A DNA stretch of 64,000 nt from positions 1,638,438-1,702,437 of the forward strand of contig CAJINV010000005.1 of the NCBI GenBank assembly GCA_905178155.1. The letters run 5' to 3'. The notes under the pieces were generated by a model that worked only from the letters and a program-made list of their open reading frames with translations, did not search any database and was not told the origin of the DNA. Source of the stretch: Amoebophrya sp. A120 (taxonomy: Eukaryota > Protista > Dinoflagellata). A program made the translations under genes and the position numbers. Within the stretch, counting starts at the first letter, position 1. Every line of letters begins with the position of its first letter. This document shows positions 1 to 63,900 of the stretch, one piece after another.

Positions 1-2082
1 GCGCCCACGTGAACCGCGGCGGCGCCCGCCATCGTGATGTGATTCTCGTTAATTGCCTCCACGTTTGGAAGCACGATGACGCCCACGTGGATCTGCTGGC
101 CGCATATCAAATGTAAAAGCGTCCCCACCCCATAGTCAAGTTGGGAACTTGGCAACACAAATCCAGAAGTTTTGGGAGGCATGCATGACAAGTTGCAGTC
201 CGTAGTGTGGTGCAGGTTAGCAACGGAAATCGCATCACAAATCCATCTGCTCATCCTGTTTCCAGCATTACAAATACCAAAACACGACTTAAAATACCTC
301 TCTTGGGTCTGCGCATGACAAATGTTCCTGTAGTCGCAAATCTGCATGACAACTCTGGGGTGGGGACGTTTTTACTAAGAATACCGCAGTGCTCCTTCCC
401 GAACTCTTTCCAGTACTCGTAGTCGCAGTGGATGCGGTCGCAGCCGCAGGTATTTTATCCTGTGCAAAAGTATCGTATTCGAGTCTCGCATTACAAATCT
501 TTTTATTAAGGCAAATCCGCACTACAAATTTTATTTCTCTTGCTGAAAAATTTGTAATGCATTTATACGAGTACGATACTTTTGCAATTCATATATTTTG
601 AGCGACCTGTTCCTCGGAACACAGCCGGGGATCGCATTCCCCCGCCGCGGTGTTCGACCCGATGGGCTGCTTCGTCCAGCACAGATCCGCTTTGCTCCCG
701 GGCTTCCGGAGGTCGGGACGTTTGCTGCTCGCCCACCACTCGTAGTCGACATACTTGCGGTTCGGGTCCGGCACGTCGGTCTCGGCCAGCGCATCCACGC
801 GCCAGATGTTCAGGTACTCGTTGCCCGTACCCGCGTCGTACATGGGGAAGTGCGTCAGGTGCCCGTCCTTCGAGTTGATCTGCTGTTCGTGCCCGTTGTT
901 GAAAATCCCCGTCGGTCCGTAAATCACCGTGTGTACGGCGTGGCGCCACGAGACCCAGTCGTCGTTCATGTGCCATTGGAACGGCACCAGGATCACGTTC
1001 AGCGCTTCGTGGCTGGGGCGGATGCCCGCAATCCGCCGGCACGTTGGTTTCCGGGGCGGCTCCGTGTCCCAGCCGAAACCCGGATTTTTCTTGCGCAAAA
1101 GTTGCTCGTGCGCCTCTGCAGCCTCCGGGGAGGGGTCGAGGTACTGAAAAATGTCTTCGGAATTGGGATTCGCGTAGTCGAAGAGTGGTCCAGGTGGGCC
1201 TTGGGACGGCGAGCCCTCCTCGCCGATCGTCTCGCTTCCGCCGCCGATCGCCCCGTCCGTTGCACCAGATCCCGACTCCGTGGACTCAGCGGCCACGGCG
1301 ACGGGTCTGTCGACGCACCGCTTCTTCCTTGCGAGAAACGTCTGTCGCAGTGTGGAAAACGAACCGGCCTTATAATTGGTCCTCGTGGACCTCGTTTTTC
1401 TGCTGCGTTCTTTTGTCGATGTAGTAGCTTCCTTGGTTCTTTCATGTTCCGTCGTGGATGTTGAGGAGACCGCGGAGAGCACAGATGACAAAGTAGAGCT
1501 GCGCGTGGACGAGGAGGGCTCATCTTCTACTTCGCGACGTGGTCTGACAACGTTTTTACTGGCGGACGTAGAAGCCGTAGAACTAGTGCTCCTGTTGGTC
1601 GAGGTGCTTGATGCTGGCGCTGGCCCGGAATTCTCCAATAGCTGACGCCGCCGAAGATCTCGAGCAGGACCACCATCCTCTACGTCGTGGTCTACTTCTT
1701 GCTGCAGGTTATCTTCTTCATCTGCTAGTGGCTCCGCTGCTAGAGGAGGCAAATCAACCTTGTTTTGAGGAGCATTGTCGTCGTCGTGTACGTGTTCCTC
1801 AGCTGTTCCTCGCTTGATGATTTTCGCCTTGACGATCTTCTTCGTGGTTTTCCTGCGCACCACGGTGAAGGCGGACGCCAGCTGCGTGATGTTAAGGAGC
1901 TGCTCAAGCTGCACGGAGAGACAAAGAAAGTGAATGTTGACAGCACTTCTCGAGCAGGAAACTGGACCGAGACCGACGATCGTGCGTAGTAGACCCGCAC
2001 TCGTGGTCCGTCTTCGTTGCCTCGCGTCGTTGTGAGCCCCGTCCATCTGACACACCGTCGTTCGTTTTAGAAACAACAACAA
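1..2082 (-). CDS. Hypothetical multi-exon protein, 3'-partial (runs off window start); low-complexity N-half, Cys/Trp-rich globular C-half
   Basis: 497-aa ORF 589-2082. Removing introners 456-593 and 105-383 (each plus one DR) extends the frame: ...EQVAQN|TCGCDRIHCDYEYWKEFGKEHCG|QQIHVGVIVLPNVEAINENHITMAGAAAVHVG. Start codon uncertain. Confidence 0.7.
105..383. mobile_element. Introner / non-canonical intron (family G)
   Basis: TAT...ATA ends; IR core AAAA.CGTCCCCACCCCA; perfect DR CCGCA (100-104 / 384-388); removal is in frame. Confidence 0.9.
456..593. mobile_element. Introner, family A (TGCAAAAGTATCGTACTCG IR)
   Basis: TAT...ATA; perfect DR TATTT; removal is in frame. Confidence 0.9.
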
Positions 2083-3300: not shown

Positions 3301-6300
3301 TCACAACAATGGCACGGTGCAAAACGGAATCTTGAGAGTCTGTACTTGATCTGAATCTTTCCCATTCCCACGATGCTCCTGCGCGGGGGCCGTTTTCATC
3401 CCTGCAGTTTCTGAGCTCGACGTCAACATTTCCGCCTCCTCCATCAGCTTCATCCTTACCGCCGTCGGGTCGAACACGACCCCCTGCCGTCCTCCACCTT
3501 GCTATGGATTGCAAAATGTCTGGGTCTGGAACAAGAGTGGAACTTGTAATGTTTGCGGATTCTGAAAATATCTGCGTTGCATGAGCAGCAAGAGGAGTCA
3601 GCTCTTGGCACGCGGAGAGGGCATTTCTCATGCGTAATTAGCATCAAGAGGCTCTCAAAAAATCAGTGATGCTAGCACCAGCATCACAGACCTCACGCGT
3701 CATGCAAAATGTGCATGACAAGCTCCGACTCTTCCAGACCCAGGCATTTTTGCATTTGATACTTGCCCGCCCTGCACCACCAGCACCTGCTTCAGAAAAG
3801 CCTGCCTGTACAGCGCTCGCTTATGAAAGCCTCAGGTTGGAAATCCTCAAAGTGAAAATAATTTGTAATGCAAAAAAAACGACTCCAGTTGAAGCACCAT
3901 TTATAGTCGGCGCATGACAAATTTCCCGGGCTGCACTCAAAACGTGTCTGTCATGCTAGTGAGGCAAAGGGGTGCGTTTCTGTCATGCTACTCAGCACTC
4001 CAATCCTTAACCCGTAGAAGCACAATAGTCGGCTTCCATTGCGTTCGCTGCAACACAGTCTTTTTGGTGGCGCATTCCATGCATCACAAATTATTTCCAC
4101 TTTGAGGATTTCCATTCTGAGGGTGTCATATCGCTGATCTTCCGCTTTTCGCCGCTCCACCTCTGCTGTCTTTCGCGCGGCTTCTATTAACTGCAAAAGT
4201 ATCGTACTCGTATAAATGCATTACAAATTTTCTCAGCATGAGAAATAAAATTTGTAATGCTGATTTGCCTTGAAAAAGAAATTTGTAATGCAAGATCTGC
4301 ATTTATACGAGTACGATACTTTTGCAGTTCATAGCTTCCAGCTCGGAGCAAAAATCAAGTAGCTGACTCCGGAGAAAGGAAGATTCTTTTTTTCTTGGTA
4401 TTTCATCTACTTTATCGTGTAGTTGTCCCGCCTCTCTGGAGGTTGTCTTTGGGCTACTACTACTAGTGTCAGGTCTTGCTTCTGGCGGTGTTTTTTTTAT
4501 CGAGAAAGGCTGTGGCTGGTCGTCGTTCGCTTTTTTTACTACAAATAGCTCCTTATTTCCTCCCATTTTTCCCTGGTTTGTTAGAGCTGGTGAACCACCA
4601 GGAGCTCGTGGATCATCAACAATGTCTCGACTAAGCACCGCTTCGACTTTATTTACAGGCAGCACTTTTAGCAGCGCAGATAACTCCTTTCGCAGCAACG
4701 TCCGGAAGTGCGGTAAGGGGGACAGACACCGGTTATGGATGTGTCAGAGTTGAAATCAACAAAGTTGAAATAATTTGTCATGCATAAAATGAATGCCAGT
4801 TGGAATCCAGTTTTCAAGTGGCGCATGACAAATTTCGGTGGTCCCTAGATCCAGTTTGTCATGCTGTTTAGGCAAAGAAGAGCGATTTTCTCATGCTACT
4901 TTAGCAGCTCGAGCTGTAACCCCGAACAGGCTTGCAATCGGCCTCACTTACCTGCTCTGCAACACACGTGCCTCGGGTCATGCATTTTATGCATTACAGA
5001 CTATTTCAACTTTGACGATTTCAAACCTGACGCTTCCATACCGGTAAATCTCAGGGTAGTGGTCGAGGTGGCACATCGCAAACTTGATCAGCTGTTCCTC
5101 TAGAGGACGGGTAGTTCTTTCAAGGACGGAGGTTGCACAGGAGGTGGTAACAGCAGTCATGATTGCACCTTCTTCACAGAAGTGGTCCACCATGTCCTGC
5201 TGCTCTTGAGTACTAGAAGAAAGCTCAACGTCACCATTCGACAGCGTGCTAGCACCAAGAACAGCTCCGGCTCCTTCCGACGTCCCGGCACTTGTTTCCC
5301 CCGCTGCTGCACCAGCCCAAGAGGCTGCGCTCTTTGTATGCAGCTGAAGGAGACACTGGCACAGGTGTTCGACATCCCCTGTTTTTTCCAAGACCAGCTG
5401 GAATAGCTGCTTGAGGTCGTCGGCATTACCTTCGAGAAAACAGTTCTTCACGTGGAAGTTGATTTCGCTAGCGAGTAAGCCAGAAGCGGAAGTAGACCAC
5501 GACCTGGGCGTAGTTGAAGATCCGGCCAAAGCTGATGATGTCCTTGTTATGCCTCCAGTAGTGGGACGAGGAGCACCACCTCCAGGAGCTCCTGACGCGA
5601 TGCCATGATCCAATGAAAAACGTCACACGGCAAGAAGGTCTGGCTTCGGATCATCGCATCATTAGCGCGCGGCACACTTTTTTGATTTTCGTTTTTCTGA
5701 GACCTAGTAATACTAGTACATGACCTTGATAAGATACATATAGTTCATTTGAGTACTCTAGGTTTGTTTCAGCTATGAACTCTTAATCTTCGTCCAGCTT
5801 GTTAATGCAAATTCTTTTTCCAGATCCACATCCAGTTTTACTTGCTGTGCGGTAGAAGCGAATTTGCAAAGCATATGACGAAGCCCCTGTAGTTACTCCT
5901 GTTCCTTCTGCATCACCATCCGGTGAATCCAGCGTAGCGAAGTGGTTTTCTTGTACCAAACTAGCGACGACGTCCTGATCTGTCTCGCCGAGCCGGTCTC
6001 GAAGCTGCTGCCGAAGTCCGGATGTTGAGGCACTGCTGCCAGAAGCGCCTGCAAAACTACACCAAGTGGCGACGAGGGTGTAGATGTCTTGAGTTCCACC
6101 ACGGTCGTGTGCAGGCAACGAATTCGAAGTACCATCCAGCAAAATAAAAGAAAAAGCTGCTTTCAAATTCTCTGCTGTTGTTTTCCTTGATCGCAATTTT
6201 GTCCTTCTCCAGAGATTCAGGACGAAGAAGCAACGCAAAGGGTCGGCCTGCGAATAAACCGCAAAGAGCTCCGCGTCGGATAGCAACGAGCGCAACCCGC

Positions 6301-15001: not shown

Positions 15002-18000
15002 TCAAAAGTTGTCGTCCCAGCCGGTGCCTGGGTCTCGGTACGGAATCTGGGGTGGCAAGTCGGCTTCCTGCGCTCGGAAGTTGCTCATGTCCGTGTTTCC
15101 CCGCACTTCCGGGATGTAGGGCGGGCGCGCGGTGTGGCTCTCGAGCGCGACAAAGTCAAACGCCCGGTACCACAGGTGCTCCTTCAAATTCTTCGTGCCC
15201 CCACTTCGCATTGGTAACCGCTCCGAGGGGCAGTGCTTCAGGAGCTGTTTCACGAGGTCCATCGCGTCGGGGTCGCGCTCGCGGTACGAAAAGTTCACGC
15301 CGTTCACACCACGGACGATTTTCTGGTATAGATTCGAAGTACGAGAGTCAAAGGAAGTTGTCAGGCAACCACTGAACAAACATCCATCAACAAAGTACCA
15401 CAACAAACACGGACAAATGCAAATGCACGACACGAAACATCTAAAAATTGTAATCCATCTTCACGACGTAGCATCAAGTTTATTCCTGGTTCTCGATCTT
15501 GGTATTGATCTGGTTGACAACCGTGTAGCTTCTACAAGTACAACTAGTACGTCAACATGAGAAGAAAAAATCTTCCTTTCGGAGTTGTAGTCTGATTGTT
15601 ATAAAAATATCAAAAAAAAATAAAATTATTCGTAAATACCTGGTATGTTTCCATGGGATCCTTTGCGTCGAACGGTGCGTGCCCGGAAAGCAGCTCGTGA
15701 ATTAAAATTCCCATATGAAAGCCTCAGGTTGGAAATCCTCAAAGTGGAAATAATTTGTAATGCAAAAAAACGACTCCAGTTGAAGCGCCATTTGTAGTCG
15801 GCGCATGACAAATTTCCCGGGCACTTAAAGCATGTCTGTCATGGCATGACAGACAAGGCAAAGGGGTCGTGCCCCTCTCGTCTCATGCTAAACAGCACTC
15901 CAATTCGTCACCCCTAGCAGGACAATGGTCGGCCTCCCTTGCGTCCTCTGCTATACAGTCTTTTTCATATCGCATTCCATGCATCACAAATTATTTCCAC
16001 TTTGAGGATTTCCATTCTGAGGCCTTCATATCCCAGTGTCCACCAGTCCACAGCCTTGTTCATGCCGGTCTGCTGAATCACTTTATCGCAAGAAAAAAGT
16101 GTTACAGTTACACACTGCGTTGCAAGACCGGCAACACAGACAACCTTTCTCATGTAGGAAATGCTTGGGAGCCTCGTTTCCTTCCTGTTTTCCCGTATGA
16201 TCTTCGCATCACAAGTTTTCTGTGCCACACAGAGAAAATTTGTGATGCAGAAACTCCAACAAATGTGTAACTGTAACACTTTTTTCTCGTGATACACTTC
16301 CGGTGCGAAGTAATCCGGTGTTCCGCAGGTCGTGTAAGTTTTCCCAGAAGTTAGGATCTATGATCCAGTTTTTTTTTTTCATCTAAATTGCTGACTACAT
16401 CAAAAAGTCGGACGATATTGAAGATGTTGATGTTGTAGATGCTACTGATACAACCAAAGACAAAGTTAGTACTAGTTCTAGTAGACATGCTAGTTGTATA
16501 ATATCACGAAATTGTCGATGTCAACACTGTAAATGCAGCTATCCAAGACGACGAAATGTACCTTTGCCAGACCCATGTCGGTGAGTTTGCAGAAGCCCTT
16601 CACGTCGAGCAGTAAATTTTCCGGCTTCAGGTCTCGGAACACGATGTTGCGCTCGTGCAAGTGCTCGAAGGCAAGCACGACCGACGCGGAGTAAAAGCGG
16701 GCCTTGGAGACCGACCCGTGAAACCGTCTCTTGTGGTAGGTCGCGAACAGCTCGCCGCCCATTGCGGGTTCAAGCAGGAAAAAGAGGCGTATCGAGAATA
16801 AATTCGCCGTACTACACGACGTACAAATGATCTTCGCAAATTGAAATTATATGCATGACAAAGGTCTAGTATAATTTGTTCTGTTAACACTTGTTCAGCA
16901 TTGCAAATTTATGCTTATTGAGCCGTCAAAATAATTTGTCATGCATTTCGTCCCTATGTACGGTAAATTTGTATTGCTTAAGGTGCTCCTTCGACTTGAA
17001 TGTCTGGTACAGAGCGATGATGAACTTCGATTGGCTATGAAAAGGAAAAAACCCCCCTCCCCATATCAAAAAGGAAATCTGTGATGCTGGATTTGCGTAC
17101 ACAAATCAGATTTGTATTGCAGGAAGGCATTGCGGCCAGATCCCCAGGCTAGGTAGGGGCGTATGGGTTTAGTTGCTCAGCATTGCAAACGGCTGACCTT
17201 TAGGCCCAGCAGCATGACAAATCGCTTCCATAATGGGGCGGAAGCTCTGCCCGTGTCTTCTTGCAAGACAAATGTGATTTGTGACCTCAAATCAGCAGCG
17301 CAAATTTTCGGAAAGATACCTTTTCGATATGGGGAGGGGGGATTTTTCCTCTCAATATTGGCACAGCAGGAGAATCTATGCATCGAAATTTTGTCTGGGT
17401 CTGAATTTACTCGGAAGACGCGAGCTTTGAAGGAAAGGGAGGACAGCAAAATTTGCAGTGCATGAATCGGATTGGCGGGTTTTCTACTTGCTGTGTGCAT
17501 TCATGCAGAACTTCCCGAATTACGAATACTAAATTCGAGAGGAACAAGGAACAAGCCCCCGCTCGGAGGAAAAATTTGTCATGCTCGCATGCTGGATCGA
17601 ACAGAGGACCTCCACCTTGACTCTGGCATGCTAAACTCAGCAACAGATGAAACTATCCGCTCCGTCTTTCCAGACCCAGATCGTTGATCTTTGCATTTGA
17701 TAGAATCTCCTTTTCCCGCATCACGCCTTTCTGCATCTTCATCTTCACGATGTACCCCTTGGACAAGGCCTTCAACGCATACACGTCCCCGGTTCGCTTG
17801 TGTTTTTCCAGCGTGACGGCACCGAAGCCCCCGCAACCGAGCAGCCCAAGCCGCTTCAGGTCGTTCAGGTCCACCTTCGGTCGCGTGCGGAGAATGGCGT
17901 TGTCAAAAGCTCTTACATCAGTTGTGATCGCTGTTGTTCTTGCATGGATTTTTTGTGATGCAAGGACAATGTTGAGAGCAAACCAAGAAAGCGGTTTGTG

Positions 18001-37546: not shown

Positions 37547-37620
37547 TTCCCCGGATCACCGTCGAAGCTCGCTTGGGCTCCTTGGCTAACTCGAAGGCGA
37601 AGACCGCTCCGAGTGATAAA

Positions 37621-37653
37621 GAGTAGCAAGCCTGCTACTCCGCTACCTACCAC
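37621..37653 (-). promoter_or_regulatory. Putative primer-binding site with adjacent hairpin
   Basis: The minus strand reads G-TGGTAGGTAGCGGAG immediately after the 5' LTR. Overlapping 8-bp stem GAGTAGCA-agcc-TGCTACTC (37621-37640). Confidence 0.6.
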
Positions 37654-45476: not shown

Positions 45477-45893
45477 TCAATGACCTGACGCTTCGCTTCC
45501 ATAAAACGCTATCGGCGCGTTGTACTGCTTCGGAAACATGGGATGGTCCGGCTGGTCGTCATAATTGAAACGCAGCAGGTTCACCAGAATCGCGTACACC
45601 GGGATGTTCAGCATCCGGCACCAGAACACGCGATTTTCCGGATTTTTGTCCCACAAAGACGAAAACGCAAGCACGGCCAGGGACAACGCGCACGCTTCGT
45701 AGGCGCAGACGAACCGGCCCATCAGGACGTGAAATTTCTTCGAGGGAGCCAAAGCGGAGTGTCCGCGCGCATACGCCTCCGGGTCGTAGAGAAGCTGCGT
45801 GCTCACGACGAAAGAAATCAGGGAGCAGATAGTGATGCTTGCCTTCGTGGCGTAGCGCTGCAGGAGATGAGAGGTCAATGAAAGGGACGACAT
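45477..45893 (-). CDS. Small hypothetical membrane protein (3 hydrophobic segments; 3' end may be spliced)
   Basis: 138-aa ATG-initiated ORF with GC3-rich codons typical of real exons here. Confidence 0.6.
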   Translation of the reverse strand: MSSLSLTSHLLQRYATKASITICSLISFVVSTQLLYDPEAYARGHSALAPSKKFHVLMGRFVCAYEACALSLAVLAFSSLWDKNPENRVFWCRMLNIPVYAILVNLLRFNYDDQPDHPMFPKQYNAPIAFYGSEASGH

Positions 45894-49486: not shown

Positions 49487-50873
49487 GGATCCTGGTTTGT
49501 TTGAGATGAGAATATTGCAGAAAAATCGAAATAATATTTATATGTTGGCAGCGTTGCTCTGCATTCGTATCACTTATGTATGATGCAGTAGTTGCAGTCA
49601 ACTCAACGTCGATCTCGATATGTCAGAAGTATAAATGAAACTGAGAAACAAGATCCACTTAGTTAGTACCGTCGTTGTCGTCCTCTCCTTGTTCCTCATC
49701 CTTCACATCCCCGTTCTGTTGCTGCTTCACATCAACATCTTCCACATTTTCTTGTTTGACAAGAGCTGCGCCGCACAGCGGTTGCGTGAGCCAGACCGGC
49801 TGCTTGCTGCAGTCCACGCCAGGCATTCTCTTGGGCTTGATTGGTGACGATACGGCCTGTGACGTATTTTTACCTAGTAAAGAAGAACTACCTTGCAACG
49901 GGAGTACCAGATGCCATGTCACAGATTTCGATGCGGAGGAGCATGGTTGCTTTATCAAAACTGTTGCAAGCAGGCACTCGGACTCGCGTATCTTCGAGCT
50001 TTTCAAAAAATCGGTATCAGGACCGCGTCCACTAATGAAACTAAACAAAGAATTTCAACATCGCACATGAATTTCTGTTTCTATTTCTTGTTCTGGTGGC
50101 CAAAGAGATCCTCGTCTTCCAGTTAATAGAGAATGCTGATTTTTACCGCCGCTGTCGATCGACGATGTTGGTTTTTAGGCATCAAAGACAAGACGAAATC
50201 GAGCAAAAAGCGCATTTTCTTTCCAATTCCATGTCCGAAGAGGAAAGAAATCAACACATATACAAACATATACAGAAAACGAAGCGATCGACGACATGGC
50301 TCCTCAGGGGACGAACGACGACAAGCGAATCCTTGATCTAAAACGATATTACTACTAGTAGACTAAATAACTGGAGTTGTTCGACTACGACTTATTCCTT
50401 GTTTTATAATAATTAGGACCGTCCTGAAGAACCGAGGCTTTCGGGAATAAATCAAGAAAAACTTGCACAGCACCCGCAGAGCTACGTACTCGACTACTTA
50501 CTAGAAGTAGCTGCTTTGTCAACATGTACCACTACTACATAGATGAGCCAGATGAAACTGCCTACGAAATAAAACAAGCGCTGAAAGTGGCACTACTATG
50601 AGCGCTGCACTTTCTCAGCCGTGGGGAAGATATCATGATGTACCGTGGGGAATTTGTTATTTTCCAATGGTGTGCCACTTGTTCGCTCTGGGTGATGCTG
50701 CGCGTTCAATCATGATCAGGCGAAAGAATTCACCTGTGAAAAATCACCGACCCGTGGTCTTCGAGCGTCTCTATCTTTACTAGGCCGCAGATCATCATGC
50801 TGCAGCTCTACCTCAGTACGCGTAGGATTGCTCCACATAACTCCGCAACTCCCCCAGTCGTTGCTCGTACGTC

Positions 50874-53800
50874 TCAGTACGCGTAGGTATGGCAGTGGGA
50901 AATACTTTTTTCCGAAAAACTTTTTTTTTTTGCTACATATGGGTCACCCACCGCGGTTAGGAGATAGCTTGTTGGCGGCGGAAATCAATTGCGTAGCAAC
51001 AACGCCCGCCACGGTGTTCTGAGCTCGGTAGCCTGAAGGCAGAAAGATGGCCGCATTGGTGGCGCACTGCGTCACGGCTTTGGGTCCGTCATGGCCGGCG
51101 TAGATGTCGAGCAGCCAGCCCCTGCAAAGCTGCCGGCTTAATGACAGCAATACGCGGCCACCCCAAAGCCAGAGCGAGGTGCTGCGGGCTGGAGCCAACA
51201 ATAGGCCCACGCCCCAACAGGCGAAACAGGCGCCCGCGCGTAGCCTTTGAGTATATTCAAAGCCATGCGCGGCATTGCCGGTGAAATTGATGCCGCGGCC
51301 GCGGCGCTCTTCCGGCCTTGGATCTCCGGGGGCATTTCTTCGCGCCGGCTGTTTTGCACGGAGGCCAGCAGAGTTCCCTCCTGGGCTGCAAAGCGATATC
51401 CTCTTGGGGTGCCCCCGAGGGGTCCCCCAAACCCCCCCTCCTTTGGGGCCTCTTCAGAGAGCTACTCCCCCTTGATATCTCCACGAAAGGGGGTCCCCCA
51501 AACCCCCCCCCTCAAGGGGGGGGGGGGCCGACCCCGCTTTTCGTTTGCGCAAGTTTGCAGATTTTCATAAGATAGTTCTTGAACAGCCACAGCGCGAATC
51601 CGGGCAAGGCGGAGACTTGCACTGCCTGGCCGGGAATAAATTCAAGGGCGCCGAAGGTGTCAGCCTATCCTGTATTTGCCGCGGGGGGCGCTTCCAAAGC
51701 TAGGGCGGGCCATGCCTCGAGGCCGTCCGCGTTTCAAACTGTCGCTTCTAGGCGAACCAGTCAGAATGTCGCTGACTTACCCTGAAACCCCTGCCCATAC
51801 ACCAAAGCCGCGGCAGAGGCCTCGCGTGTCACGTACCTTGAGGCCACACCGCCAAGGACTGAATCCATGGCCGCGGCTGCTCCTGAGGCCACCTCTCTCC
51901 TGCCTTCCGGGTAGCTAGCTAAGTTCTAGGCGGCATCTCTACGCCTATGCAGATCTGTTCTGCGCGTGCCGGCTTGTGTACGTATGAAGTGCCGTAAAAT
52001 CATATGTAGCGAAAAAAAAAAGTTTTTTTGAAAAAAGGATTTCCCATTGCCATAGTAGGATTGCTCCACATAACTCCGCAACTCCCCCAGTCGTTGCTCG
52101 TACGTCTGCGCAATGTGCAAGGCTAAATGGTCGCAGACGTCTGCTTATGCATCGCAAAAGCAGGTCTGGGGCTGCAAGGAAGTCGTGGTGCGCAAATCTC
52201 GTGAATGTTGATGAACGCACTAGTACCATATCCATAGTCATCTTCAAGCATGACGAGAAAGTTATTTCATGATAATGCGACTTCGTCTTTGCATCACACG
52301 CAGAAGGACCTATTTTTTTTCATGTTGGAGCACATCGATCATGGCGCATCATTGAGAGTGAAGCTTAAGATAAGGTGTGGGTGTCTGTGAGACGAAGTGG
52401 TAAGACTGACAATTCCTGCAATCTTTCAGACCCAGACATGTTTACGCTCGCTACCGCCAGACCACTGTTATCCATGGCGGAGATTCCGAACGTATCCGGT
52501 GCAAAAGCATCGTACTGCAACTTGGAACTGCAGAACAGCAATACAAAATCAAAGCTACTGTCAGACTCAGACGCCTTCATCCTGCTCCAGCATTTCAAAA
52601 AAATTTATGATCCGCTTTTCTCACTGACGTAGAAATTCTCGTGATGCAAACAAGAGGAAGTCGTACGATATCATATTACTTTTGCAGTGCATAGAAGGGG
52701 ATCAGCTGCAAGTCCGGGCGGTTGCGCATAAAATCACTCTGGTCCTCCTCTGAAACTCGCCTGCAGGTAGACGAGTCGTTCTTGTTCGCGACGAGGCAGA
52801 TACAGCAGGGTATTTGGCCCTCGACGGCCTTGTCGATGGAGGGAAGGAACTGATCAGGAATGCATTGCAAGCACGTCTGGCTCTGCCTTTCGGAAGAAGC
52901 TCATGCATCCAGCGGGACATACAAAAATCCTTGCTGCGTGAGCAGGAGCGAAAGAAACCCTCAATACACCCTGCTCACGAAATCTGTGATGCAAATGCTG
53001 AGACTTTTTGTAAGCAAGAAATTGTGGGGCTGCAAACTGCTCTGCAAGGCAAACATCTTTCTAAGTACTTCATCTGCACTGCTCCACCAGACGCAGACCC
53101 AGACACATTTACCTTTGATATGAAGTTCCCTCAAACTATCCGGATCGGAGACGTCGTACGTTATCCACTGCAAATATCGATCTGGGTCTGGAAATTTGTT
53201 GATTCTTGGATGAGTGAAACACTTTCAAGTGCGCCTAAGCATGGGAAAACGCTTCCTCACATGTAGCTCGCATACGGGATGGAATTACAAAAAGAACGAC
53301 AAACTTCTAGAAGAACAACTGCGATTTATTTGCATGGCAAAGAAAGCTTCGCGTTTGATTTCGGTTAGATTTTGATTTTTTTCCGGAAGAAATCAACCGG
53401 GTGCTCGCTTCTTTAGGCGAGCGAGTGACTGTTGTACGTGCTAATTGAGTTCCTGAGAGTAAGTGGCAGGCAAGCTGTGTTTCAACAATTTGCCACCAGA
53501 ACTTGACTAAAAAACACCCGTTTTGATGTCGAACAGCCAAGACTGGGGAGTTGCCTCGGAAAAATTGCACCGGGATGCTCTTAGTCCTTGGCTTCAGGCG
53601 GGACTTGCACTACCTCCTCATCCGTGCTAGTCCTACCAACCTCCGCGCAGCCACGAGGTCCAAAACAAGCCGCCTCTGCTTGCCCTTCCTCGTGTCCAAC
53701 AGGCTCCTCAAAGCTGGCAGGTCCTAAGAGAGCCTCCTCTGCTCTCCCTTCCTGTCAACACCGCCGCAGCCGAGGCTTTAGCGATGGCACGCAAACGCCA

Positions 53801-54938
53801 CCGGGAAACACTGGAAAACACGAAGTTACACCCAGCATCGCCCAGTTGCCTTGCCCCTAAACCCTTTACCCTACCCTGAAACCCTTGCCCCCCCCCGACC
53901 GAGATTTTTAATAAAAAAAAAACCCAAAAGCTATTGACCCTTTTTCCCTGCTCTCCCCCCCCAAATGATTTCCCTTAGCCGGCTCCAGAGCACAGAGCGG
54001 TTAGGGCAGAGATTGTTGTGATTCTGTAGGAGGAAAAGCGCTAATCTAATCTACTTGCGTCTGTCGAATATCTTTATCTTAGATGCTGACGAAGTGCATC
54101 TCTCAGCGATAAAGAAAAACTATAGCTTTTCTATCTCTCAAGCGAAAACTATAGCTATTTCCGGAAGAAATCAAATACAAGGCAGGCATCTCAACTCGCA
54201 CTTTCCAGACGACCCAGACACATATGCAATGCGTATACATCAGGACAAAGCAACTTGTGCCCTTGCAGACCGAGTCCACCGTTTGCGAGTGTGCGACAGT
54301 GTTCGTTTGTGTATCCGTTGCGCCAGCGATGTTTCTGTGAAATCCAGTGGTAGAACTAGAAGTAATTTCGCAAAGCAGAAGTACTAGGTACATGCCTTCA
54401 GCTTCTTGTCAGGACGTAGATCAGCGTCGAGATACTTATTTCCTTCCAATTGCATGCGCCATGTATCATCTTGAGTCCTCTGTCATGCAAATCCTCGATG
54501 TGGTTGACATTAGCAGCACTACAGACGAAAATACCCGCCACACTCCTGCAGGTGCAGTTCGACCTGAATATTCCGGTCCGGAAACGGAACGACCTTCACC
54601 GTGTTCCTTATCCTGATGAAAAAAGTATACTCACCCAAAAGTTAAAATCCTCAAGATGAAAACAAATACAAAACTGATGTGCGTGACAAAAATATAAAAC
54701 ATTTACTTTTACATTTTGTGCATGCAGACTCTGATTCGCATCATGGCAAGAATCATTGAGTGCAGGAGGTGGGTACATTTTTACAAAGGATAGTCTCTCG
54801 CCCCAGAGTGACGTTGTACGATCTCGGAAAGCTCCCGTCGCCGAGCACTTCTCGGAAGGCGGTTTTCCCGACTTTTGACTTGCCCAGAATCGCCACTTTG
54901 CCACGAAGGACCAGAGGCGGACCGAATTGCGCGGCCAT
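50874..54938 (-). CDS. IFT27: IFT27/RABL4-like small GTPase (intraflagellar transport), multi-exon
   Basis: LRGKVAILGKSKVGKTA; VVPFPDRNIQVELHLQECGG; CFVLMYDVSDPDSL; CLVANKND; C-term HIAQTYEQRL with no CAAX. These match recalled IFT27 features. Confidence 0.78.
50888..52054. mobile_element. 1,167-bp TIR element with introner-type termini (non-coding)
   Basis: TAT...ATA; ~55-bp TIR (TATGGCA.TGGGAAAT...GCTACATATG); perfect DR GTAGG; GC-rich interior with G/C runs; no transposase ORF seen. Confidence 0.88.
52146..52453. mobile_element. Degenerate introner, family C
   Basis: DR CTGCT/CCGCC; removal gives SGLA|DVCDHL. Confidence 0.72.
52493..52693. mobile_element. Degenerate introner, family A-like
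   Basis: DR GAACG/GAAGG; removal gives LIPF|GISA. Confidence 0.75.
52859..53120. mobile_element. Degenerate introner, family C
   Basis: DR TCAGG/TGAAG; removal gives LREL|DQFLP. Confidence 0.68.
53162..54235. mobile_element. Expanded (1,074-bp) family C introner
   Basis: Family C ends; DR TACGT/TACAT; removal gives CFVLMY|DVSD. Confidence 0.75.
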
Positions 54939-56055: not shown

Positions 56056-59000
56056 TCACGAGTACTTGAACGGGTGCACGTATGCATTGCAAATATGTCT
56101 GGGTCTCGGAAGATGCAGACCTGTGATGCTGGTCCTGGTGCGCATTCCAGTTCACATCAAAATGAATCTCCCATGCCTGGCGGGCACATCAAAAGACAAA
56201 AGTTATAGACTTTTTGCCGCCTAAAGAGGATACTTCTAAGTATATGCGGGTTAGGCGTTGACCACCAGTACTTAAGAACCTTCTCAGGGCCCATGGTGCT
56301 AGGGTTTTCATGCCAGGCCTTGTGTTGCGCGCAAAAACTGCATGGAAATGGCAAACGTCTGCACTCATCCAGACCCAGAGATATTTGCAATCCATAGCAC
56401 CACGTTGTTCACAATGTCGTACTTCACTGACGGGTTTGTGATGGCTAGCCTGGGTTCCCTATCAGAGTGCACTATTCCCCTTGGTTCCCCTCATTTGCGA
56501 TGCAAAAGGCAAAGTCCACCAGGCCTTGCATTGTTCTCCTAGTTGATTTTGAATTAAATAAAAAAATTTGCCAGCAGTGTTTGCATGACAAGCTTTTGCG
56601 GCATAGCCCAGACACGACAGTGGCACTGCAGTTATGTCATGTCACACAAAGCCTTTATGGAAACTGCTGGTGTTCTTAGTCTTAATTGCATTGCTATTCA
56701 TGCCCTGCAATGATTAAAGGGGAGAAGGGGAAAGTTGTGCACTCTCATATTTCCGGTAATAGCTGTCGTGCCGGAAGAGCTTGTCTTCGGACGAGTAATT
56801 ATTGTTTTTTCTCTGCTATGCATCGCAAAAGTATCGCAGTCGCAATAGTACGAAAAGTTGCATTGTGCATCATACGAATTTTCTCAAAATGATATCCGCC
56901 ATTTCTAATGCTGCTTTCGGTTTATTGTTATTGTTCCCATATGAAGTGGAAGATTTGTCATGCAGTAAGAAGTATTGCAATTGCAATTGACAACATTCCG
57001 AGTGCGATACTTTCTCTTTCGCGCAGGATAACAGCACTGAGAAATCGTAGTTCGGTATCCTGTTGTAGATGTAGTGGCGATTCTCAATCGAGAATGATGT
57101 CGTGTCGCCGTGCCGTATGCAGATTCAGTAAAGAGGTTCTTCATTTTCATCAAGCATCATCCTGGGCATGGAACATCTTCAGACCTAATTTCCCGGATCG
57201 ATTCATCTTGCTTTTCATATTTATTCATTAATCAACATCGAATGACAGTGTGGCTATCGTAGTAGGTGCTTACTTACCTTTGTTTTGACTTGTAGATCTG
57301 CTGGCTAATGAGGTCTTGTCCCGCTGCAGTCGTGTGCACCGATTGCGAATACGTGTTGGCCGTCTTGCACTTCGAAAACGCTGCGGACTGTAAAAAATTC
57401 AAGCATCACGAAAGAGATTTACGATTTTCTTCCCTAGGTGTGGTTTGCTGTGGATTTGTGCTTTAGCTTTTGTTGAGAGCATGAATGAATAACAATCAGA
57501 ATAAACTGTGTCAGACACTAGTAGCATCATCTCATTCTCAACTTCCTCGTCTTTTCGTCCTGATACAATTCATTCTAGCGCATTGTATTTGTAGCTGTTG
57601 TCGTTGTGCTCCTATACCTACGAAAAAAATCCATAGGTACCTCATTCTGCACTTGCCTCCAGTCGGGATACCTCACTCTAGGTTGTATGGACAGAAAAGT
57701 TGCGGTTGGTGTTGGTCACAATCAAAACTAATTACTGCAGCTTTTGCATCAGAACTTTTTCCAGCGCAAAAATTTTTTCTCGTATTGATTGCAGGAGAAA
57801 CACAAAGGAATGAATCTTCGCGTTCTTCATCCTATAGGACTATACTGCTCTGTTGATGCATTTACTCTATGCATGGCAGACATTCACATTTTTCTAGTGC
57901 GAAAATGCCAACGAGTGACCGTGACAAACTTTAAACTTTTTTTGTTGGATACGTTGTGTTCGCGCACTACTTCTCGCCGATGAAGCATCGGACCTTGTTG
58001 ATATGGACGCCTCAACTGGAGCATCAATCTCATCCATGTGGAACAAACTGTGATGCAAACAGCGGATAAAAATCTGTCTGGCTTGTACTTGTTCCAGGGG
58101 GTAGGTGTTCCGCATGACAAATGTAACAATGCAGCAGCTCATCATCTTCTTCTTCATCATCAAGCCGCATTACAATTATCCGCACAAGTACAAGCTTTGT
58201 CATGCAAATCGGGACCGAGCAGGCTCGGCTTTTTTTACCGTTTATGCCGCTAGTAGACAGGTCTGGACGTTTTGAATTGGTTGTAACAACTTCGGCTCAC
58301 ACAATGTTTAGCCCTACCTTGTTCCAGTTGTGCGACTGTTCTAGCTGAGTAGCAGGGCATAAATGAGTACATCACCTTTTCCAAGTACTCGCTCTTTGAC
58401 CGCGTCCGCGTTGCATTCACTTTGTCGTCCTGATAGAAAAGCGGTATGAATCAATCTTTTTATTCGATCTCCCACAACCACATCATGATGCAAATATGAA
58501 TACACGATCCACTATCTCATGCGCCGAATGCGAAGCAAAAGCAGGTAAGCAAGACTTTAATCCTGCACATCAACAACAACATGCACAGTTAGAGAATTTT
58601 GCCATTTCGCGGCGAGTTCGTTTTAGATGTCGACCTCGTGGCTCAACAAGCGGAACTAGATGCAATACAAAGTGAAAGTTCAAGAATTGCGGTATAATGA
58701 AGAATCAGACCCCTGCAGTAGCCGGGGCTGCGAAGAAATAAGCAGAGTTGTAATGCGAATACCACGTCAGTTAAATTTCTCCTGTTCGGCCTGGGTGAGC
58801 CGTCAGGCCTGAGTTCGTGCCTTCTGCGCTGAAAATCCCCGAAGTTCTGGTGGTTCTCCAACTGCGCCAGATGGAGCTCCAGCCTGCGGCACTCCTTGTC
58901 GGCGACTTTTGGATGCTCGTCCAGTATCGAATGCAAATATCGATCTGGCTCTGGAAATTTCTGATGAAATTGTCGTGTGGGTGGAAAAAAGCAGCCGCAG

Positions 59001-59929
59001 CCCTCTCTCGAACTCGTAGAGAGTCACGCATGGAAAATGTTTTGAACGGCTAAGCATGTCGTACGCGAACACGACTAAGTAAACGGCATGACGAGCAATT
59101 ATAGCATTTTATCATGACAAATCAAACAGGCGGGGCTTGAATCGCCATAGATCATAGGCAAGATGGGTTTTTCTCTCCTCCTGTTAGTGTTAGCCCAGCC
59201 TGACAGACCTTGCTTTCTATCTACTTCCAGGCGCAAACATATTTGCGATGCATATCCAGAGCGGTGAGGCAGTGCTTCACCGGCTCACGCGGGTCCCTTT
59301 TGAAGAATGAGTTGTTGATGTGTCTTAGTTGTTCATCATGTCCTTTGAAGATGCCACAGAGAGACAACGTGCGAGCATCCGCCTGCAACATGAGAAAGTC
59401 TGGCTCTAGTACAACTTCTACCCCTGCCCAACAAGAAGGTCGTGGTCAAGAACACGCATCAGCGAAAATAAACTCTGTACTTACCTTGGAAAGGCCCGTC
59501 TCCTCTGAAACCATTTGTTCGTCGTTCGATTGCCCTTATGAATTGCAAATATGTAGTCTGGTGGTGGCTCGAGGAACGGCGACGAGCAAATTTATTGTGT
59601 TCGATTTCACGCATTCAAAGATCTGGCAAGCATGAGCATGACCGGATAAAATTTGCAGGACAAAGTGTTATCTTGTTCCCATCCCCGACATCACGATACA
59701 TTTTGCATCTTCGTTGATAGCTCTTGTCTACAAAGTGGTCGTTGTTCCGCAGCTGCCGGAGGTAAATCTCGTCGGACTCGCCGTTGTTGACTATGTTCCA
59801 GTTGTGCCCACCCAGTCGCGCCGCGATCGCCTTGTCGTTGGCCGTTCCCACACATCGCTGCTCGTCGTAGTGATTCAAACTACCCTCCAGCGTCCGCTCC
59901 CGCAGCGCGTCGTTTTTCGCGGACGCCAT
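56056..59929 (-). CDS. Hypothetical multi-exon protein
   Basis: First exon MASAKNDALRER...; exons joined via introners (TAL|DEHPK; YYRK|PRLAITNPSVKYDIVNNVV|HPFKYS*). The middle exons are not resolved. Confidence 0.55.
56081..56396. mobile_element. Introner, family C
   Basis: TAT...ATA; DR GCACG/GCACC. Confidence 0.85.
56460..56749. mobile_element. Introner, family D
   Basis: TAT...ATA; DR TTCCC/TTTCC. Confidence 0.82.
56817..57030. mobile_element. Degenerate introner, family A-like
   Basis: TAT...ATA; AAAGTATCGCA IR; DR matches at 3 of 5 positions. Confidence 0.65.
58925..59254. mobile_element. Introner, family C
   Basis: Perfect DR TCCAG; in frame. Confidence 0.85.
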
Positions 59930-60930: not shown

Positions 60931-63900
60931 TCAATTTAGAAAGTTCAGCAGCAGCTTTATCTTCTCATCCGCCTGGGCCAGTTGCGTCAAACTTTGTTTG
61001 TGCGGCAAGAGCTGCTGCTTCACATGCTGTTTGTAATCCGGGATCTCGCGAATCATGTAGTCTCCACCGTCCGCGCCGTTATGCATCACAAAAGTACAAT
61101 CGCACTATCATGACCATATTGAGGTTGAGAAATTGCATCACATATTTTTTTAGCAACAAACTGGAATTCATGCTGCTGCAGCAGCAGGAGCAGCTTTATC
61201 ACGTAATGAAAAAGAAACTCTGGTAGTTGTACCAACATGCAGTGTATCGATAAATGCAATCTACACGAGTACTAGAAGTCCGATACAACTTTTGTACAAC
61301 AGGATAAGCGTCGGCGTTCGACAGTTTGGAGTTATCCACAGAAAAAAACCCATCCACATCCATTTTTTGCATGACAAACGCAGGATTTTATGTATGTTTT
61401 GCATGACAAATTGGATGTGGATGGGTGTTTTTTCCTGGATAGGAGTACGTGCCTTCGTACACCGTTTGTCCGAAGGTTGGGTCCTCGGCCGCGCCCGGGC
61501 CGTATCCTGTGCAAAAGTGTCTGGGTCTGGAAGATTCTGCGACTTGTCATGCACGTTTTGCATGGGCCATGATGTCTGTGATACATGCCCTAGCATCACA
61601 GACTTTTTGAGGGCTCTGTGATGGCTATTCCGCATGGCAAATGCCCTCTCCGCGTAGCCAAAATTGCATCCCCTTTGCTGCTTATGCAATACAGATTCTT
61701 TTGGAATCCAAATGCAGCATCACAAGTTCGGATTCTTCCAGACCCAGACATTTTTACATTTGATAGGCCGCCCGCCAGGCTGATGTCGGGGATGCCGGGT
61801 ATGCTGACCGCGGGCGTGAGGAGCTGCTGCGCGGACACGACCGAGGAGCTACTCAAGCTGGCGACGCCGAGGAGTTGCGCGAGCTTCACGCACGCAACTT
61901 TCCCGTCCACCCCCTGCTGGAAGAGCAGCTGAGTCAGGGCCACCGCAGCGATTTTACGTTCCGGCGGGGTCTGCATCAAGTCCAGCGCCGCCATCCACAC
62001 GTTCGTCATGATCTGCTGAAACAACCCAGGTTGCATGCGTTCGAGGATGTCGCGGAGGCTCGCCGCGCCACGCTTCCACTGTTTTTTCGTTTATTTTCAT
62101 GTGAAAAAGACCTTCGAAGATCTTCATTTTTATCCGGGTCGTGACTGAGTAGAAGTCCTGCTAGCGTGGTCGCTTGTTGTGCATGTGTTTGCATAATATG
62201 ACGTATACTTTGAATCGCATCTATGGGTCTACGTCAATCTCTATTACTTCTATTTGCTCAAAAAAATCATAAACTTGTCTCCATGATGTTGATACCACGA
62301 AAATACTGGCCGCCAGCACGAAGTGCTTCTTCATCCGGACGTCGCTTTTCCTTGACATCAGTGCGGTTAGTGCAACCTTGAAAATGACGTCCACTGTGGA
62401 GGAATACATTTCGAAGGGGAGGTACGCGAACACCGCACCGAGCAGGTCGAAGGCCATGCCCTCCGTTTTTCGGTTGTTCAAGGTTCCTTCGAACCTCTTC
62501 AGAATCTCCCCCATGTTCTGCTGCAACAGCGCGCGGAAGTGCTCGTGCCGCGAGAGGTAGCTTTTCAGAAACCGAACCAAGGCGGGGATGTTCGGGTGCT
62601 TCGTCCAAAACTCGAGATGCATCAAAGTTTGGAACAGCTGGGAGTACACGGGTTTCACCTGGAGTAGGTGGGGTTGTAAAAATAACATCGGGATAGTGGG
62701 TCATAATTATTTTGGTGTTGACGGTGATGTTCATCCTGGCACATGGAAACCCTGTTCCTGTTCCCAACGCCACCAAAGCTTCAACCGTGCGGCGGTCTAG
62801 GTCTTCATCAAGCGAAAAAAATAATTCAAAAAAAGTTGTAGTTAAAAACCGTATCGGGCAAAACATCAGAAACAGAATCCCACATCGTATAATTTGGTTT
62901 TGCTTTTTACCTCCTTCGTCGAGTCCAGTAGCAATCCGAGCACCTGGAAGACGTACGGTAGGAAATCTTTCATCACCTCCCCCTGAAGGATGAACCCGCA
63001 CACCTTCAGCATCTGCCCCTCGACCTCGTCTAGCTTGCCCGTCGGTTGTGTATGCACCGCAACTACAACCATGTCTTTGTGTGTCCCCCGGGTCTGGAAA
63101 ATAATGAAAATGATCCTCATAATCAATCAATGCAAGGTTTAGGTTTGTCATGGTTTTTATGCTCCGCGCGTATAACAACAATTCTACTGAAGCGGTCTGT
63201 CACGTACAGTACCCAAAGGCCCCATCATGATGCCTCTGTCAAGCCCAAACGCACTTATAATGGAGATGCGAAACAGACAAACCCTGCCACAAGAAACTCA
63301 AAAATTTGTCATGCTTGTCCGTCAATTGCGGCGTGCGCGCGCTGCTCGTGGTCGTGGTCAACCAGCAGCACAATTTTCCAGATATTGACCCAGACTACAT
63401 GATGATAGTTGCGATGCATAATGTGCGACCTTGATGATGACCGCCACGCCCTCGAAGAGAAAGTGGGCGAACGACGGGTGTTTCGGATTTGCCGCAATTT
63501 GTTCCAGGAGCTGCGTCGACTTCTGCAGCATGGGCACCGCGATATCGCCGGCCGAGTGTTTGAGGAACAGAAAAATGCGGACGATGCACCGCATCAAATA
63601 CTCGTTCTGTTCGATTCCCCTTTTCTCCGTCAAGATGTTCACCATGGGCTCGAGCGCGGTTCTGAGCAAGGCGGACAGCTGCTGGGGCTGGAACTTCAGG
63701 TTCCCAACAATAGTTTGCGGTGTTTGCGTTTGGTTCGCCCCACCACTGCTCACGTTGCTGTTTGCCGTGCCCATTTCCCTCACCATGATGATCTTCTCGA
63801 TCGCGTGCGCGGCGCATCACGGTGCACAACTGTCCCTCACGACGGAGCCCCCTCATTTGTCATGCTTAACAGACTTCTGCGCTACCTAGCCCGGGCAGCA

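What the first reader, a model, noticed from the sequence alone, without database searches (positions are those of the whole stretch)
105..63420. One architectural rule for at least 37 non-GT-AG introns: [5-bp DR] TAT-TIR ... TIR-ATA [5-bp DR]
Seen: six or seven sequence-unrelated families share TAT/ATA termini and a 5-bp DR of free sequence. Removing element plus one DR restores conserved motifs in PKG, CSE1 and IFT27 (e.g. DWWTLG|ILI, APEV|IQ). Sliding the junction through the DR gave no GT-AG pair in the cases checked, although normal GT-AG introns occur in the same genes. Known: IR/DR-bearing introner elements were reported in Amoebophrya, and to my knowledge their splicing and mobilisation mechanisms are unresolved. 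Inference: a second, structure-guided excision system acts on MITE-like insertions with a 5-bp TSD.
Basis: partly seen in the sequence, partly recalled or inferred. Interest (0 to 1): 0.9.

Follow-up and report, generated by a model that had tools for sequence, protein, structure and literature searches.

The report
Splice code of Amoebophrya hairpin introns
These are the already-described transposon-like hairpin introns of the marine parasite Amoebophrya A120; transcript data indicate they are cut out without GT-AG at one fixed position (one base before TAT, four after ATA), likely by a loosened spliceosome, which makes an open splicing question testable.

Summary
The window is Amoebophrya sp. 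A120, and these are its introner elements (Farhat 2021: TAT-starting inverted repeats, 3-5 nt direct repeats). I count 47 complete elements; 22 have perfect TAT/ATA ends and a perfect DR, and none gives GT-AG by sliding. All 10 element joints shown in RNA-type contigs remove element plus 5 nt. Not found in print: mismatched DRs fix one register, intron = N-TAT...ATA-NNNN. Two crossovers fall between two mismatches, which argues against RT template switching. DRs decayed to 2/5 still fit the annotated proteins, so the DR looks dispensable. Families insert in both orientations, yet U+2, A+3 and A-7 are conserved in transcript direction while the paired partners A-5 and U+4 drift. This replicated in 330 oriented metagenome copies (15 vs 1; 17 vs 5 with unoriented cases). 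A DNA-type run keeps the elements. Best reading: a relaxed spliceosome reading N|NUA with a fixed-distance acceptor (0.5); rival: a separate Euglena-like system (0.35). One annotated junction (38574) breaks the rule. No transposase was found.

The parts
105..383 (-). introner core TAT..ATA (for all elements the excised intron on this minus-strand gene set is core start-4 to core end+1); perfect DR
   Evidence: open frame after removal; no RNA test
456..593 (-). introner, ~150-nt family, perfect DR
   Evidence: no RNA test
3503..3761 (-). introner, ~260-nt family, perfect DR
   Evidence: no RNA test
3822..4130 (-). introner, ~310-nt family, perfect DR
   Evidence: no RNA test
4185..4333 (-). 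introner, ~150-nt family, opposite orientation to 456
   Evidence: no RNA test
4734..5040 (-). introner, ~310-nt family, perfect DR
   Evidence: no RNA test
15714..16030 (-). introner in PKG (DWWTLG|ILI)
   Evidence: RNA contig length fit
16084..16294 (-). introner in PKG (APEV|IQ)
   Evidence: RNA contig length fit
16790..16980 (-). introner in PKG, 5' end TAA, DR 1 mismatch (k>=2)
17036..17357 (-). introner in PKG, same family as 19257 but opposite orientation
17377..17702 (-). introner in PKG, perfect DR, weak TIR
17893..18223 (-). introner in PKG, 3' end ATT, DR 3/5 (k>=4)
18279..18501 (-). introner in PKG, DR decayed to 2/5, no predicted end pairing (k 4-5)
19257..19570 (-). introner in PKG
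19764..20003 (-). introner in PKG
20104..20368 (-). introner in PKG, ~260-nt family
21475..21772 (-). introner in PKG, DR 1 mismatch (k>=2)
21844..22111 (-). introner in PKG, opposite orientation to 20104 (k>=1)
22157..22301 (-). introner in PKG, DR 1 mismatch (k>=4)
22328..22630 (-). introner in PKG
24532..24847 (.). introner of the ~310-nt family; host gene and strand unknown
38574..38731 (-). introner, 5' end TAG; EXCEPTION: annotated protein removes 158 nt (core length), not core+5
38780..38934 (-). introner in P0007 gene
38985..39236 (-). introner in P0007 gene
39651..39859 (-). introner in P0007 gene
40024..40171 (-). introner in P0007 gene, DR 1 mismatch
40310..40550 (-). introner in P0007 gene, DR 1 mismatch
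40623..40808 (-). introner in P0007 gene, 3' end ATT, DR 2/5 (k 3-5)
44912..45209 (-). introner, 5' end TAC, DR 1 mismatch
   Evidence: no RNA test
45255..45503 (-). introner, perfect DR
   Evidence: no RNA test
50814..50874 (-). empty-site copy: 61-nt tandem duplicate identical to the neighbouring filled copy after removing element+5; shows a 5-bp TSD
50888..52054 (-). 1167-nt introner in last exon of the Ras-family gene; internal 169-aa ORF has no Pfam hit
52146..52453 (-). introner, 5' end TAG, DR 3/5
52493..52693 (-). introner, DR 1 mismatch
52859..53120 (-). introner, 3' end ATT, DR 3/5 (k>=4)
53162..54235 (-). 1074-nt introner, 5' end TAC, with a nested insertion (k>=2)
54609..54792 (-). 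introner, DR 2/5 (k 2-4)
56081..56396 (-). introner; RNA joint skips 321 (k>=1)
56460..56749 (-). introner; RNA joint skips 295 (k>=3)
56817..57030 (-). introner; RNA joint skips 219 (k 3-4)
57686..57951 (-). introner; RNA joint skips 271 (k<=4)
58002..58361 (-). introner; RNA joint skips 365, unambiguous k=4; weak predicted end pairing
58925..59254 (-). introner; RNA joint skips 335 (perfect DR)
59537..59719 (-). introner; RNA joint skips 188 (k>=3)
61080..61306 (-). introner in CSE1; RNA joint skips 232, unambiguous k=4
61333..61441 (-). introner in CSE1; RNA joint skips 114
61503..61765 (-). introner in CSE1; RNA joint skips 268
63051..63420 (-). introner in CSE1; RNA contig pieces start at 63422 (k<=4)
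   Evidence: table 8
63815..64000 (-). probable 48th element cut by the window end (RNA contigs leave the window sequence at 63814); not counted
   Evidence: table 7
15323..15639 (-). GT-AG intron of PKG that also fits the element register (G-TAT...ATA-CCAG, 4/5 DR): possible old introner

Best explanation
These are Amoebophrya A120 introners, MITE-like insertions flanked by a 5-bp repeat that are removed from the transcript at one register (N-TAT...ATA-NNNN, element plus 5 nt), likely by a relaxed spliceosome that would read U+2/A+3 at the donor and would set the acceptor by distance from A-7. SHOWN: removal of element+5 from RNA; the 1+4 register in transcript direction; no G+1 or AG preference; both orientations occur. 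Shown from the annotated proteins: DRs decayed to 2/5 still fit. INFERRED, in order: (1) an unidentified DDE transposase binds the shared TIR core and the GCAT[GCT]ACA repeats and inserts with a 5-nt stagger. (2) After transcription the TIR stem brings the ends together, standing in for U1 (not detected in A120) and for AG recognition. (3) The U2/U6/U5 core cuts at N|NUA, possibly branching at A-7, and ligates to the base 7 nt after that A. Because 1+4 equals the TSD length and both ends carry TAT/ATA, insertion at any sequence in either orientation restores the mRNA exactly, which would explain the invasion.
For: RNA-type contigs X3, X4, X6: 10 of 10 element joints shown skip core+5; the 7 informative ones intersect only at k=4, two exactly; 63051 gives k<=4. 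PKG contig lengths fit +5 in all three multi-element gaps: 358=227+131 and 521=204+317, and 2590 (intron lengths). 25 of 26 element junctions in three annotated A120 proteins fit core+5 and allow k=4. Published top A120 site pairs are all NT-NN and A25's all TT-NN (PMC7789003 Table S4), so U sits at +2 in both strains. In the window U+2, A+3, A-7 and U-6 are 47/47, while +4 varies 5 times and -5 three times. In 330 oriented metagenome copies the variants are +2:0, +3:1, +4:9, -5:6, -6:4, -7:1; predicted class 15 vs 1, p=2.6e-4; substitution spectrum elsewhere in the TIR is strand-symmetric (A>G 81, T>C 78). 11 of 13 ordinary GT-AG introns here start GTA. A120 keeps nearly all spliceosomal proteins and U2, U4, U5, U6, including U2AF and PRP8. 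A spliceosome handling mostly non-GT-AG introns has a precedent in Fritillaria (PMC13326754).
Against: No preference for G+1 (12 of 47) or for AG; GT-AG in 9 of 330, about chance, whereas spliceosomal catalysis normally uses a +1/-1 pair. The donor is usually buried in a stem (median 16 bp vs 1.9 in canonical introns). Six nt from branch to acceptor is very short, and the sequence before A-7 is a poor YUNAY match (T at -9 in 15 of 47). U-6 varied 4 times in the metagenome set. Per-position asymmetry is modest (p 0.04-0.06). Of 6 terminal variants dropped for unclear strand, about 4 would go against the pattern (worst case 17 vs 5, p about 0.009 by hand). Strand calls come from a codon model that is about 90% right. 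Element 38574 is annotated with 158 nt removed, against the rule. All RNA contigs come from one study and may underlie the annotation. Every window gene tested is on the minus strand. A fixed offset from a paired triplet is also the Euglena rule, which its authors think is non-spliceosomal.
Confidence: 0.5

Rival explanations
1. A second, non-spliceosomal excision system: a nuclease/ligase or dedicated complex recognises the end of the TIR stem, cuts 1 nt before and 4 nt after it, and ligates the exons, releasing a linear or circular intron.
For: Strong predicted end pairing in most elements (median 16 bp); complete indifference to +1, -1 and -2; orientation independence; formal likeness to Euglena N3-CDG...CH'G-N5-6|R (PMC12501133); no hybrid junction (element donor with a distant AG acceptor, or the reverse) among the 10 element RNA joints shown.
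Against: Terminal bases are conserved singly rather than as pairs. The register coincides with GUA at +2/+3 in both strains (1 in 6 by chance for A120). 18279 and 58002 are removed with 0-1 predicted terminal bp. One GT-AG intron sits exactly in the element register (15323).
Confidence: 0.35
2. DNA-level, IES-like excision in some life stage; transcripts come from empty alleles.
For: TA-bounded, TIR-bearing, transposon-like ends (IES resemblance recalled from memory); only one DNA-type short-read sample examined, and Logan contigs drop rare variants.
Against: DNA-type run X1: unitigs run from flank into elements or across whole elements at single-copy depth 21-41, with no empty-site branch among the 8 pieces shown. 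X8 spans 57678-58379 with both elements. The register follows transcription direction, and crossovers fall between mismatches rather than inside homology. A minor RNA-type contig retains element 58002 (depth 5.8 vs 462), as others retain GT-AG introns.
Confidence: 0.04
3. Junctions are reverse-transcriptase template-switch artefacts across hairpins at the DRs.
For: Hairpin plus DR is the classic substrate, and all RNA data here are cDNA contigs.
Against: At 58002 and 61080 the crossover lies between two mismatched DR positions (both=0), where homology-driven switching cannot land. The joined form dominates and restores conserved frames matching the A25 orthologue. Elements with decayed DR and weak stem are removed too.
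Confidence: 0.02

Closest known systems
Amoebophrya A120 introner elements (Farhat et al. 2021, PMC7789003)
   Same: Same organism and same elements: IR starting TAT, seven variable nt, then an A-run; 3-5 nt DRs (5-bp example in the Fig. S19 legend); repeated families; non-canonical RNA-supported junctions; MITE-like, no transposase in A120.
   Different: [quoted passage not shown] 3 legend). Here one register (1+4), a uniform 5-bp TSD with an empty site, a dispensable DR, strand-specific U+2/A+3/A-7 conservation and a shared internal motif are added.
Euglenid nonconventional introns (PMC12501133; review PMC11282704)
   Same: MITE-like, ends paired, splice sites at fixed offsets from a terminal triplet pair, longer 3' overhang, DRs make junctions slidable, coexist with GT-AG introns.
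   Different: Triplets CDG/CH'G at offsets N3 and N5-6 with a purine-first exon, against TAT/ATA at N1 and N4 with no exon preference; Euglena introns are reported as circles; unrelated lineage.
Fritillaria borealis non-canonical spliceosomal introns (PMC13326754)
   Same: Mostly non-GT-AG, transposon-derived introns handled by a modified U2 spliceosome.
   Different: Preferred dinucleotides remain, U1 is kept and U2AF is duplicated; A120 shows no preference at +1/-1 and U1 was not detected.
Micromonas/Aureococcus introners (review PMC11282704)
   Same: Non-autonomous TIR transposons whose TSD is used so that splicing restores the mRNA.
   Different: They use canonical GT-AG, with one site co-opted from the TSD; these need neither dinucleotide.
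IS3EU/GingerRoot DNA transposons (PMC10045372)
   Same: TA..TA termini; integrase-like DDE transposase, in line with an A120 introner family showing Copia/Gypsy homology (PMC12130899).
   Different: Their TSD is usually 6 bp, here 5 bp; no transposase found here.

Membership tests
A120 introner elements | Genome is Amoebophrya sp. A120 | tested here: met
   three window exons 100% identical to A120 proteins
A120 introner elements | Terminal IR starting TAT, ~7 variable nt, then >=3 A | tested here: met
   logo: TAT at +2..+4, A-rich +12..+16
A120 introner elements | 3-5 nt DR at the exon/intron border | tested here: met
   5-nt DR with 0-1 mismatch in 38 of 47
A120 introner elements | Repeated families | tested here: met
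   8 families with window members; summed contig depth over element bins in the thousands to >100,000 vs ~30 single-copy
A120 introner elements | Spliced at non-GT-AG sites in RNA | tested here: met
   10 of 10 element joints shown
MITE / non-autonomous TIR DNA transposon | TIRs and a fixed-length TSD absent from the empty site | tested here: met
MITE / non-autonomous TIR DNA transposon | Cognate autonomous element with the same ends | not testable with these tools
   no genome held; the one ORF tested, in the 1167-nt element, has no Pfam hit
IS3EU/GingerRoot | TA..TA termini | tested here: met
   5' TA in 47/47; 3' TA in 44/47
IS3EU/GingerRoot | 6-bp TSD | tested here: not met
   5 bp vs usually 6
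IS3EU/GingerRoot | IS3-like DDE transposase | not testable with these tools
   no autonomous copy found
U2-type spliceosomal intron | GT-AG termini | tested here: not met
   0 of 47; 9 of 330
U2-type spliceosomal intron | Conserved U+2 (and A+3) at the donor | tested here: met
   47/47; 0 variants at +2 and 1 at +3 in 330 oriented copies
U2-type spliceosomal intron | Branch-point adenosine in a U2-pairing context | tested here: inconclusive
   A-7 conserved (47/47; 1 variant in 330) but weak YUNAY context; A120 U2 sequence not available as text
U2-type spliceosomal intron | Lariat intermediate, snRNP dependence | not testable with these tools
   contigs only
Euglenid nonconventional introns | Cut sites at fixed offset from paired terminal triplets | tested here: met
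   1+4 register; works alike
Euglenid nonconventional introns | CDG/CH'G triplets, N3/N5-6 offsets, purine-first exon | tested here: not met
   TAT/ATA, N1/N4; first exon base purine in 25 of 47
Euglenid nonconventional introns | Excision as full-length circles | not testable with these tools
   no raw reads of this locus
Ciliate-type IES (definition recalled) | Absent from expressed-stage DNA | tested here: not met
   present in DNA-type runs X1 and X8; other life stages not examined

The most novel reading that the evidence does not exclude
A120 runs a spliceosome without detectable U1 that ignores both G+1 and the 3' AG, reads only N|NUA at the donor, and branches at an adenosine 7 nt from the 3' end (a group II intron-like spacing). 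A single transposon superfamily has palindromic TAT/ATA ends and a 5-bp stagger tuned to that 1+4 geometry, so any insertion, at any sequence and in either orientation, is a perfect intron.
Probability: 0.35. Interest if true: 0.85.

Novelty: already known. Interest (0 to 1): 0.58.

Why it matters
About 65% of RNA-supported A120 introns are non-canonical and their borders were published as variable or unknown. A single register collapses that diversity into one code (N|NTA...AT(A)NNNN|). This lets thousands of gene models be corrected and gives point predictions (U+2, A-7, the 4-nt spacer) that separate a relaxed spliceosome from a new excision enzyme. Either outcome bears on how transposons become introns. 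The elements themselves are not new. The register, the dispensable DR, the strand-specific conservation and the shared internal motif were not found in what I could read: searches. Roy et al. 2023 was not held, and the figures of Farhat 2021 could not be seen.

Tried and rejected
(1) '+3' model, where the intron is N-TAT...ATA-N and three nt are added: frame-preserving, but it fits no RNA joint and none of 13 PKG junctions tested. (2) Raw RNA runs X9 and X10 (2026) held no spliced reads of this locus, only reads of other element copies: no verdict. The joint table was swamped by the DNA run's paralogues (869 rows not shown), so no empty-site joint could be read there. In one search, 3 joints were not shown. 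(3) My first reading, that all four of U+2, A+3, A-7 and U-6 are invariant, failed for U-6 in the metagenome set. (4) One search used two out-of-frame training blocks; it was redone, whose numbers are the ones reported. (5) Selection toward GT or AG in decayed DRs: no trend. (6) Transposase search: no Pfam hit in the 1167-nt element ORF, and no integrase or RT hit in the LTR element's ORFs. (7) Rfam: 0 matches in the window, no snRNA. (8) No tblastn hit of the fetched proteins and no long blastn hit outside elements in the metagenome loci, so no filled/empty comparison was possible. (9) Two relaxed-scan candidates (11569, 12743) were dropped for weak TIRs. (10) No whole genome held. Earlier scan notes: none. 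Supplements: Gozashti 2025 files 13-14 were not searched and only 22 of 58 A120 rows were seen; figure images in Farhat's supplement could bear on the register.


Full report
IDENTITY. Three window exons are 100% identical to Amoebophrya sp. A120 proteins: PKG-like P0001 (kinase plus cNMP domains), the Ras-family P0006 and P0007. All genes I could test lie on the minus strand. Farhat et al. 2021 (PMC7789003) describe introner elements in this genome. They have 8-20 nt inverted repeats and 3-5 nt direct repeats; the IR starts TAT, then seven variable nt, then an A-run; there are 29,850 copies in 1,954 families; no transposase was found in A120; and U1 was not detected. I read the abstract, passages, sections 10, 11 and 16 and supplement text, but not the figures. 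Their Fig. S19 legend shows 5-bp DRs. Their Fig. [quoted passage not shown]

OBSERVATION. The strict scan gave 42 hits, 21 with TIRs, against 0-4 with TIRs in 20 shuffles. With relaxed scans, RNA joints and proteins, the catalogue is 47 complete elements (median 263 nt). Of these, 39 end TAT..ATA, DR mismatches are 0/1/2/3 in 23/15/6/3, 22 are fully perfect, and 0 give GT-AG by sliding. Eight families hold 22 of them and 25 are unclustered. Families occur in both orientations relative to the gene, for example 17036 and 19257, or 20104 and 21844, inside PKG. They are related: a shared TIR core and an internal motif GCAT[GCT]ACA (80 copies in 13,531 element bases, 7 in the other 50,469). In metagenome copies the motif is in 329 of 330. 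It shows no strand bias to the gene overall (470 vs 520) but points oppositely near the two ends, as a DNA-level binding site would (inference). Element 50888 sits in one copy of a 61-nt tandem duplication, and removing element+5 makes the two copies identical: an empty site showing a 5-bp target duplication.

RNA REMOVAL. Runs X3, X4 and X6 are not on record as RNA but splice out GT-AG introns; they come from one study and two samples. In 55900-64000, 15 of 18 joints were shown: 5 canonical and 10 at elements, and all 10 skip core+5. In PKG, the offsets of one X4 contig fit core+5 in all three multi-element gaps (358=227+131, 521=204+317, and 2590). In three annotated proteins, 25 of 26 element junctions fit core+5. 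The exception is 38574, annotated with 158 nt removed; I could not re-map it. These annotations may rest on the same RNA data, but the A25 orthologue independently matches PKG junction residues. Nine elements have no expression test.

REGISTER. Let k be the number of DR bases kept from the upstream copy. RNA joints give k>=1, >=3, 3-4, <=4, exactly 4, >=3 and exactly 4; element 63051 gives <=4. Proteins add k>=4 four times and k<=4 once. Only k=4 satisfies all, so the intron is N-TAT...ATA-NNNN. This accounts for the published table, whose nine top A120 site pairs all have T at +2; automated TSD calls in Gozashti 2025 range from 2 to 5 nt (22 of 58 rows seen). The DR looks dispensable: 18279, 40623 and 54609 match at 2 of 5 positions and fit the rule in the annotated proteins. 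At 58002 and 61080 the crossover lies between two mismatched bases, which homology-driven RT switching or microhomology repair cannot give. The DNA-type run X1 passes through element borders at single-copy depth, and X8 spans two elements.

WHAT IS READ. In the window U+2, A+3, A-7 and U-6 are 47/47, while U+4 varies five times and A-5 three times; +1, -1 and -2 are flat. A symmetric TIR should decay symmetrically, so I tested this on independent DNA. One metagenome scan returned 146 loci from JACKZZ01 contigs (strain relation unknown) with the same families. A strand-symmetric scan found 370 elements (0 in 30 shuffled loci vs 124 real). A codon model oriented 330 and dropped 40; it was right in 31 of 34 confident leave-gene-out window calls and agreed with the rest of the locus in 216 of 238. 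Terminal variants were +2:0, +3:1, +4:9, -5:6, -6:4, -7:1. The class predicted from the window (+4 or -5) outnumbers the opposite (+2 or -7) 15 to 1 (p=2.6e-4). Six variants fell in the dropped set, and about four would oppose the pattern (17 vs 5, p about 0.009 by hand). Substitutions further into the TIR are strand-symmetric, and families insert both ways (85:66, 21:32), so this follows transcription. GT-AG occurs in 9 of 330, about chance. Predicted end pairing is strong in most elements (median 16 bp vs 1.9 for 13 canonical introns) but near zero for 18279 and 58002.

MECHANISM. Shown: RNA-level removal, the 1+4 register, indifference to G+1 and AG, and both orientations. Inferred: the machinery. 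I favour a relaxed spliceosome (0.5) for four reasons. The bases kept are those of this organism's GUA donors (11 of 13 canonical introns start GTA). A25's top sites also have U+2. Conservation is by single base rather than by pair. And the snRNP core is present, with a Fritillaria precedent (PMC13326754; abstract and one discussion section). A-7 as branch point is a guess with a weak consensus. A separate Euglena-like system (0.35) is a serious rival: Euglena also cuts at fixed offsets from paired triplets, and its authors suspect non-spliceosomal factors (PMC12501133; passages and Discussion). DNA excision (0.04) and RT artefact (0.02) are unlikely. The mobiliser is unknown. TA..TA ends resemble IS3EU/GingerRoot, but those usually make 6-bp TSDs (PMC10045372 passages). 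An A120 introner family with integrase-like homology is reported (PMC12130899 passages). A uniform 5-bp TSD, shared ends and a shared internal motif argue for one transposase type (inference), against the original paper's dismissal of transposase mobilisation.

NOVELTY. The element class and its architecture are known in this very genome; later papers repeat the description without a register (PMC11282704, PMC11453091 and PMC12005148 passages; PMC12621601 abstract). The register, dispensable DR, strand-specific conservation and internal motif were not found in searches, but Roy et al. 2023 was not held and figures could not be viewed. Verdict: already known as a kind; interest 0.58, because the splice code turns an acknowledged open question into point-testable predictions.

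Noticed in passing
window 25458-38138, minus strand: 12.7-kb LTR retrotransposon: 485-bp LTRs differing at 17 positions, TG...CA ends, 4-bp TSD, gag-like zinc knuckle, Copia-like RNase H motifs by eye, pol interrupted; no RT or integrase Pfam hit, one DUF4326 hit. It contains no TAT/ATA element.
   Followed up: partly
window 50814-50874 and 50875-52107: The last 61 nt of the Ras-family CDS are tandemly duplicated into the 3' UTR; one copy carries the 1167-nt element and the other is an exact empty site.
   Followed up: yes
window 53381-54174: Inside element 53162 a ~760-nt insert is flanked by a 16-bp direct repeat (53381, 54159) and contains telomere-like CCCTAAA-type repeats near 53856.
   Followed up: no
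window 3822-4130 family, run X9: 564 raw RNA reads leave the end of another copy of this family into a different flank; 159 carry a template-switch oligo at position 4017, i.e. a cDNA end inside an element (possibly few molecules).
   Followed up: no
window 15323-15639: A GT-AG intron that also fits the introner register (G-TAT...ATA-CCAG, DR 4/5): possibly an old introner turned canonical. Four other canonical introns carry the internal GCAT[GCT]ACA motif.
   Followed up: partly
window 5783-11740 and 40830-43300: Long low-complexity ORFs (1985 aa and ~830 aa exon) have no element, while conserved GC-rich exons of PKG and CSE1 are densely hit; suggests a target preference.
   Followed up: no
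window 32447-32614: 12-nt tandem repeat array inside the LTR element between its ORFs.
   Followed up: no
loci L001-L146 (JACKZZ01 contigs): A metagenome assembly holds an A120-like genome with the same introner families, up to 96% identical to window copies; about 420 matching stretches estimated.
   Followed up: partly
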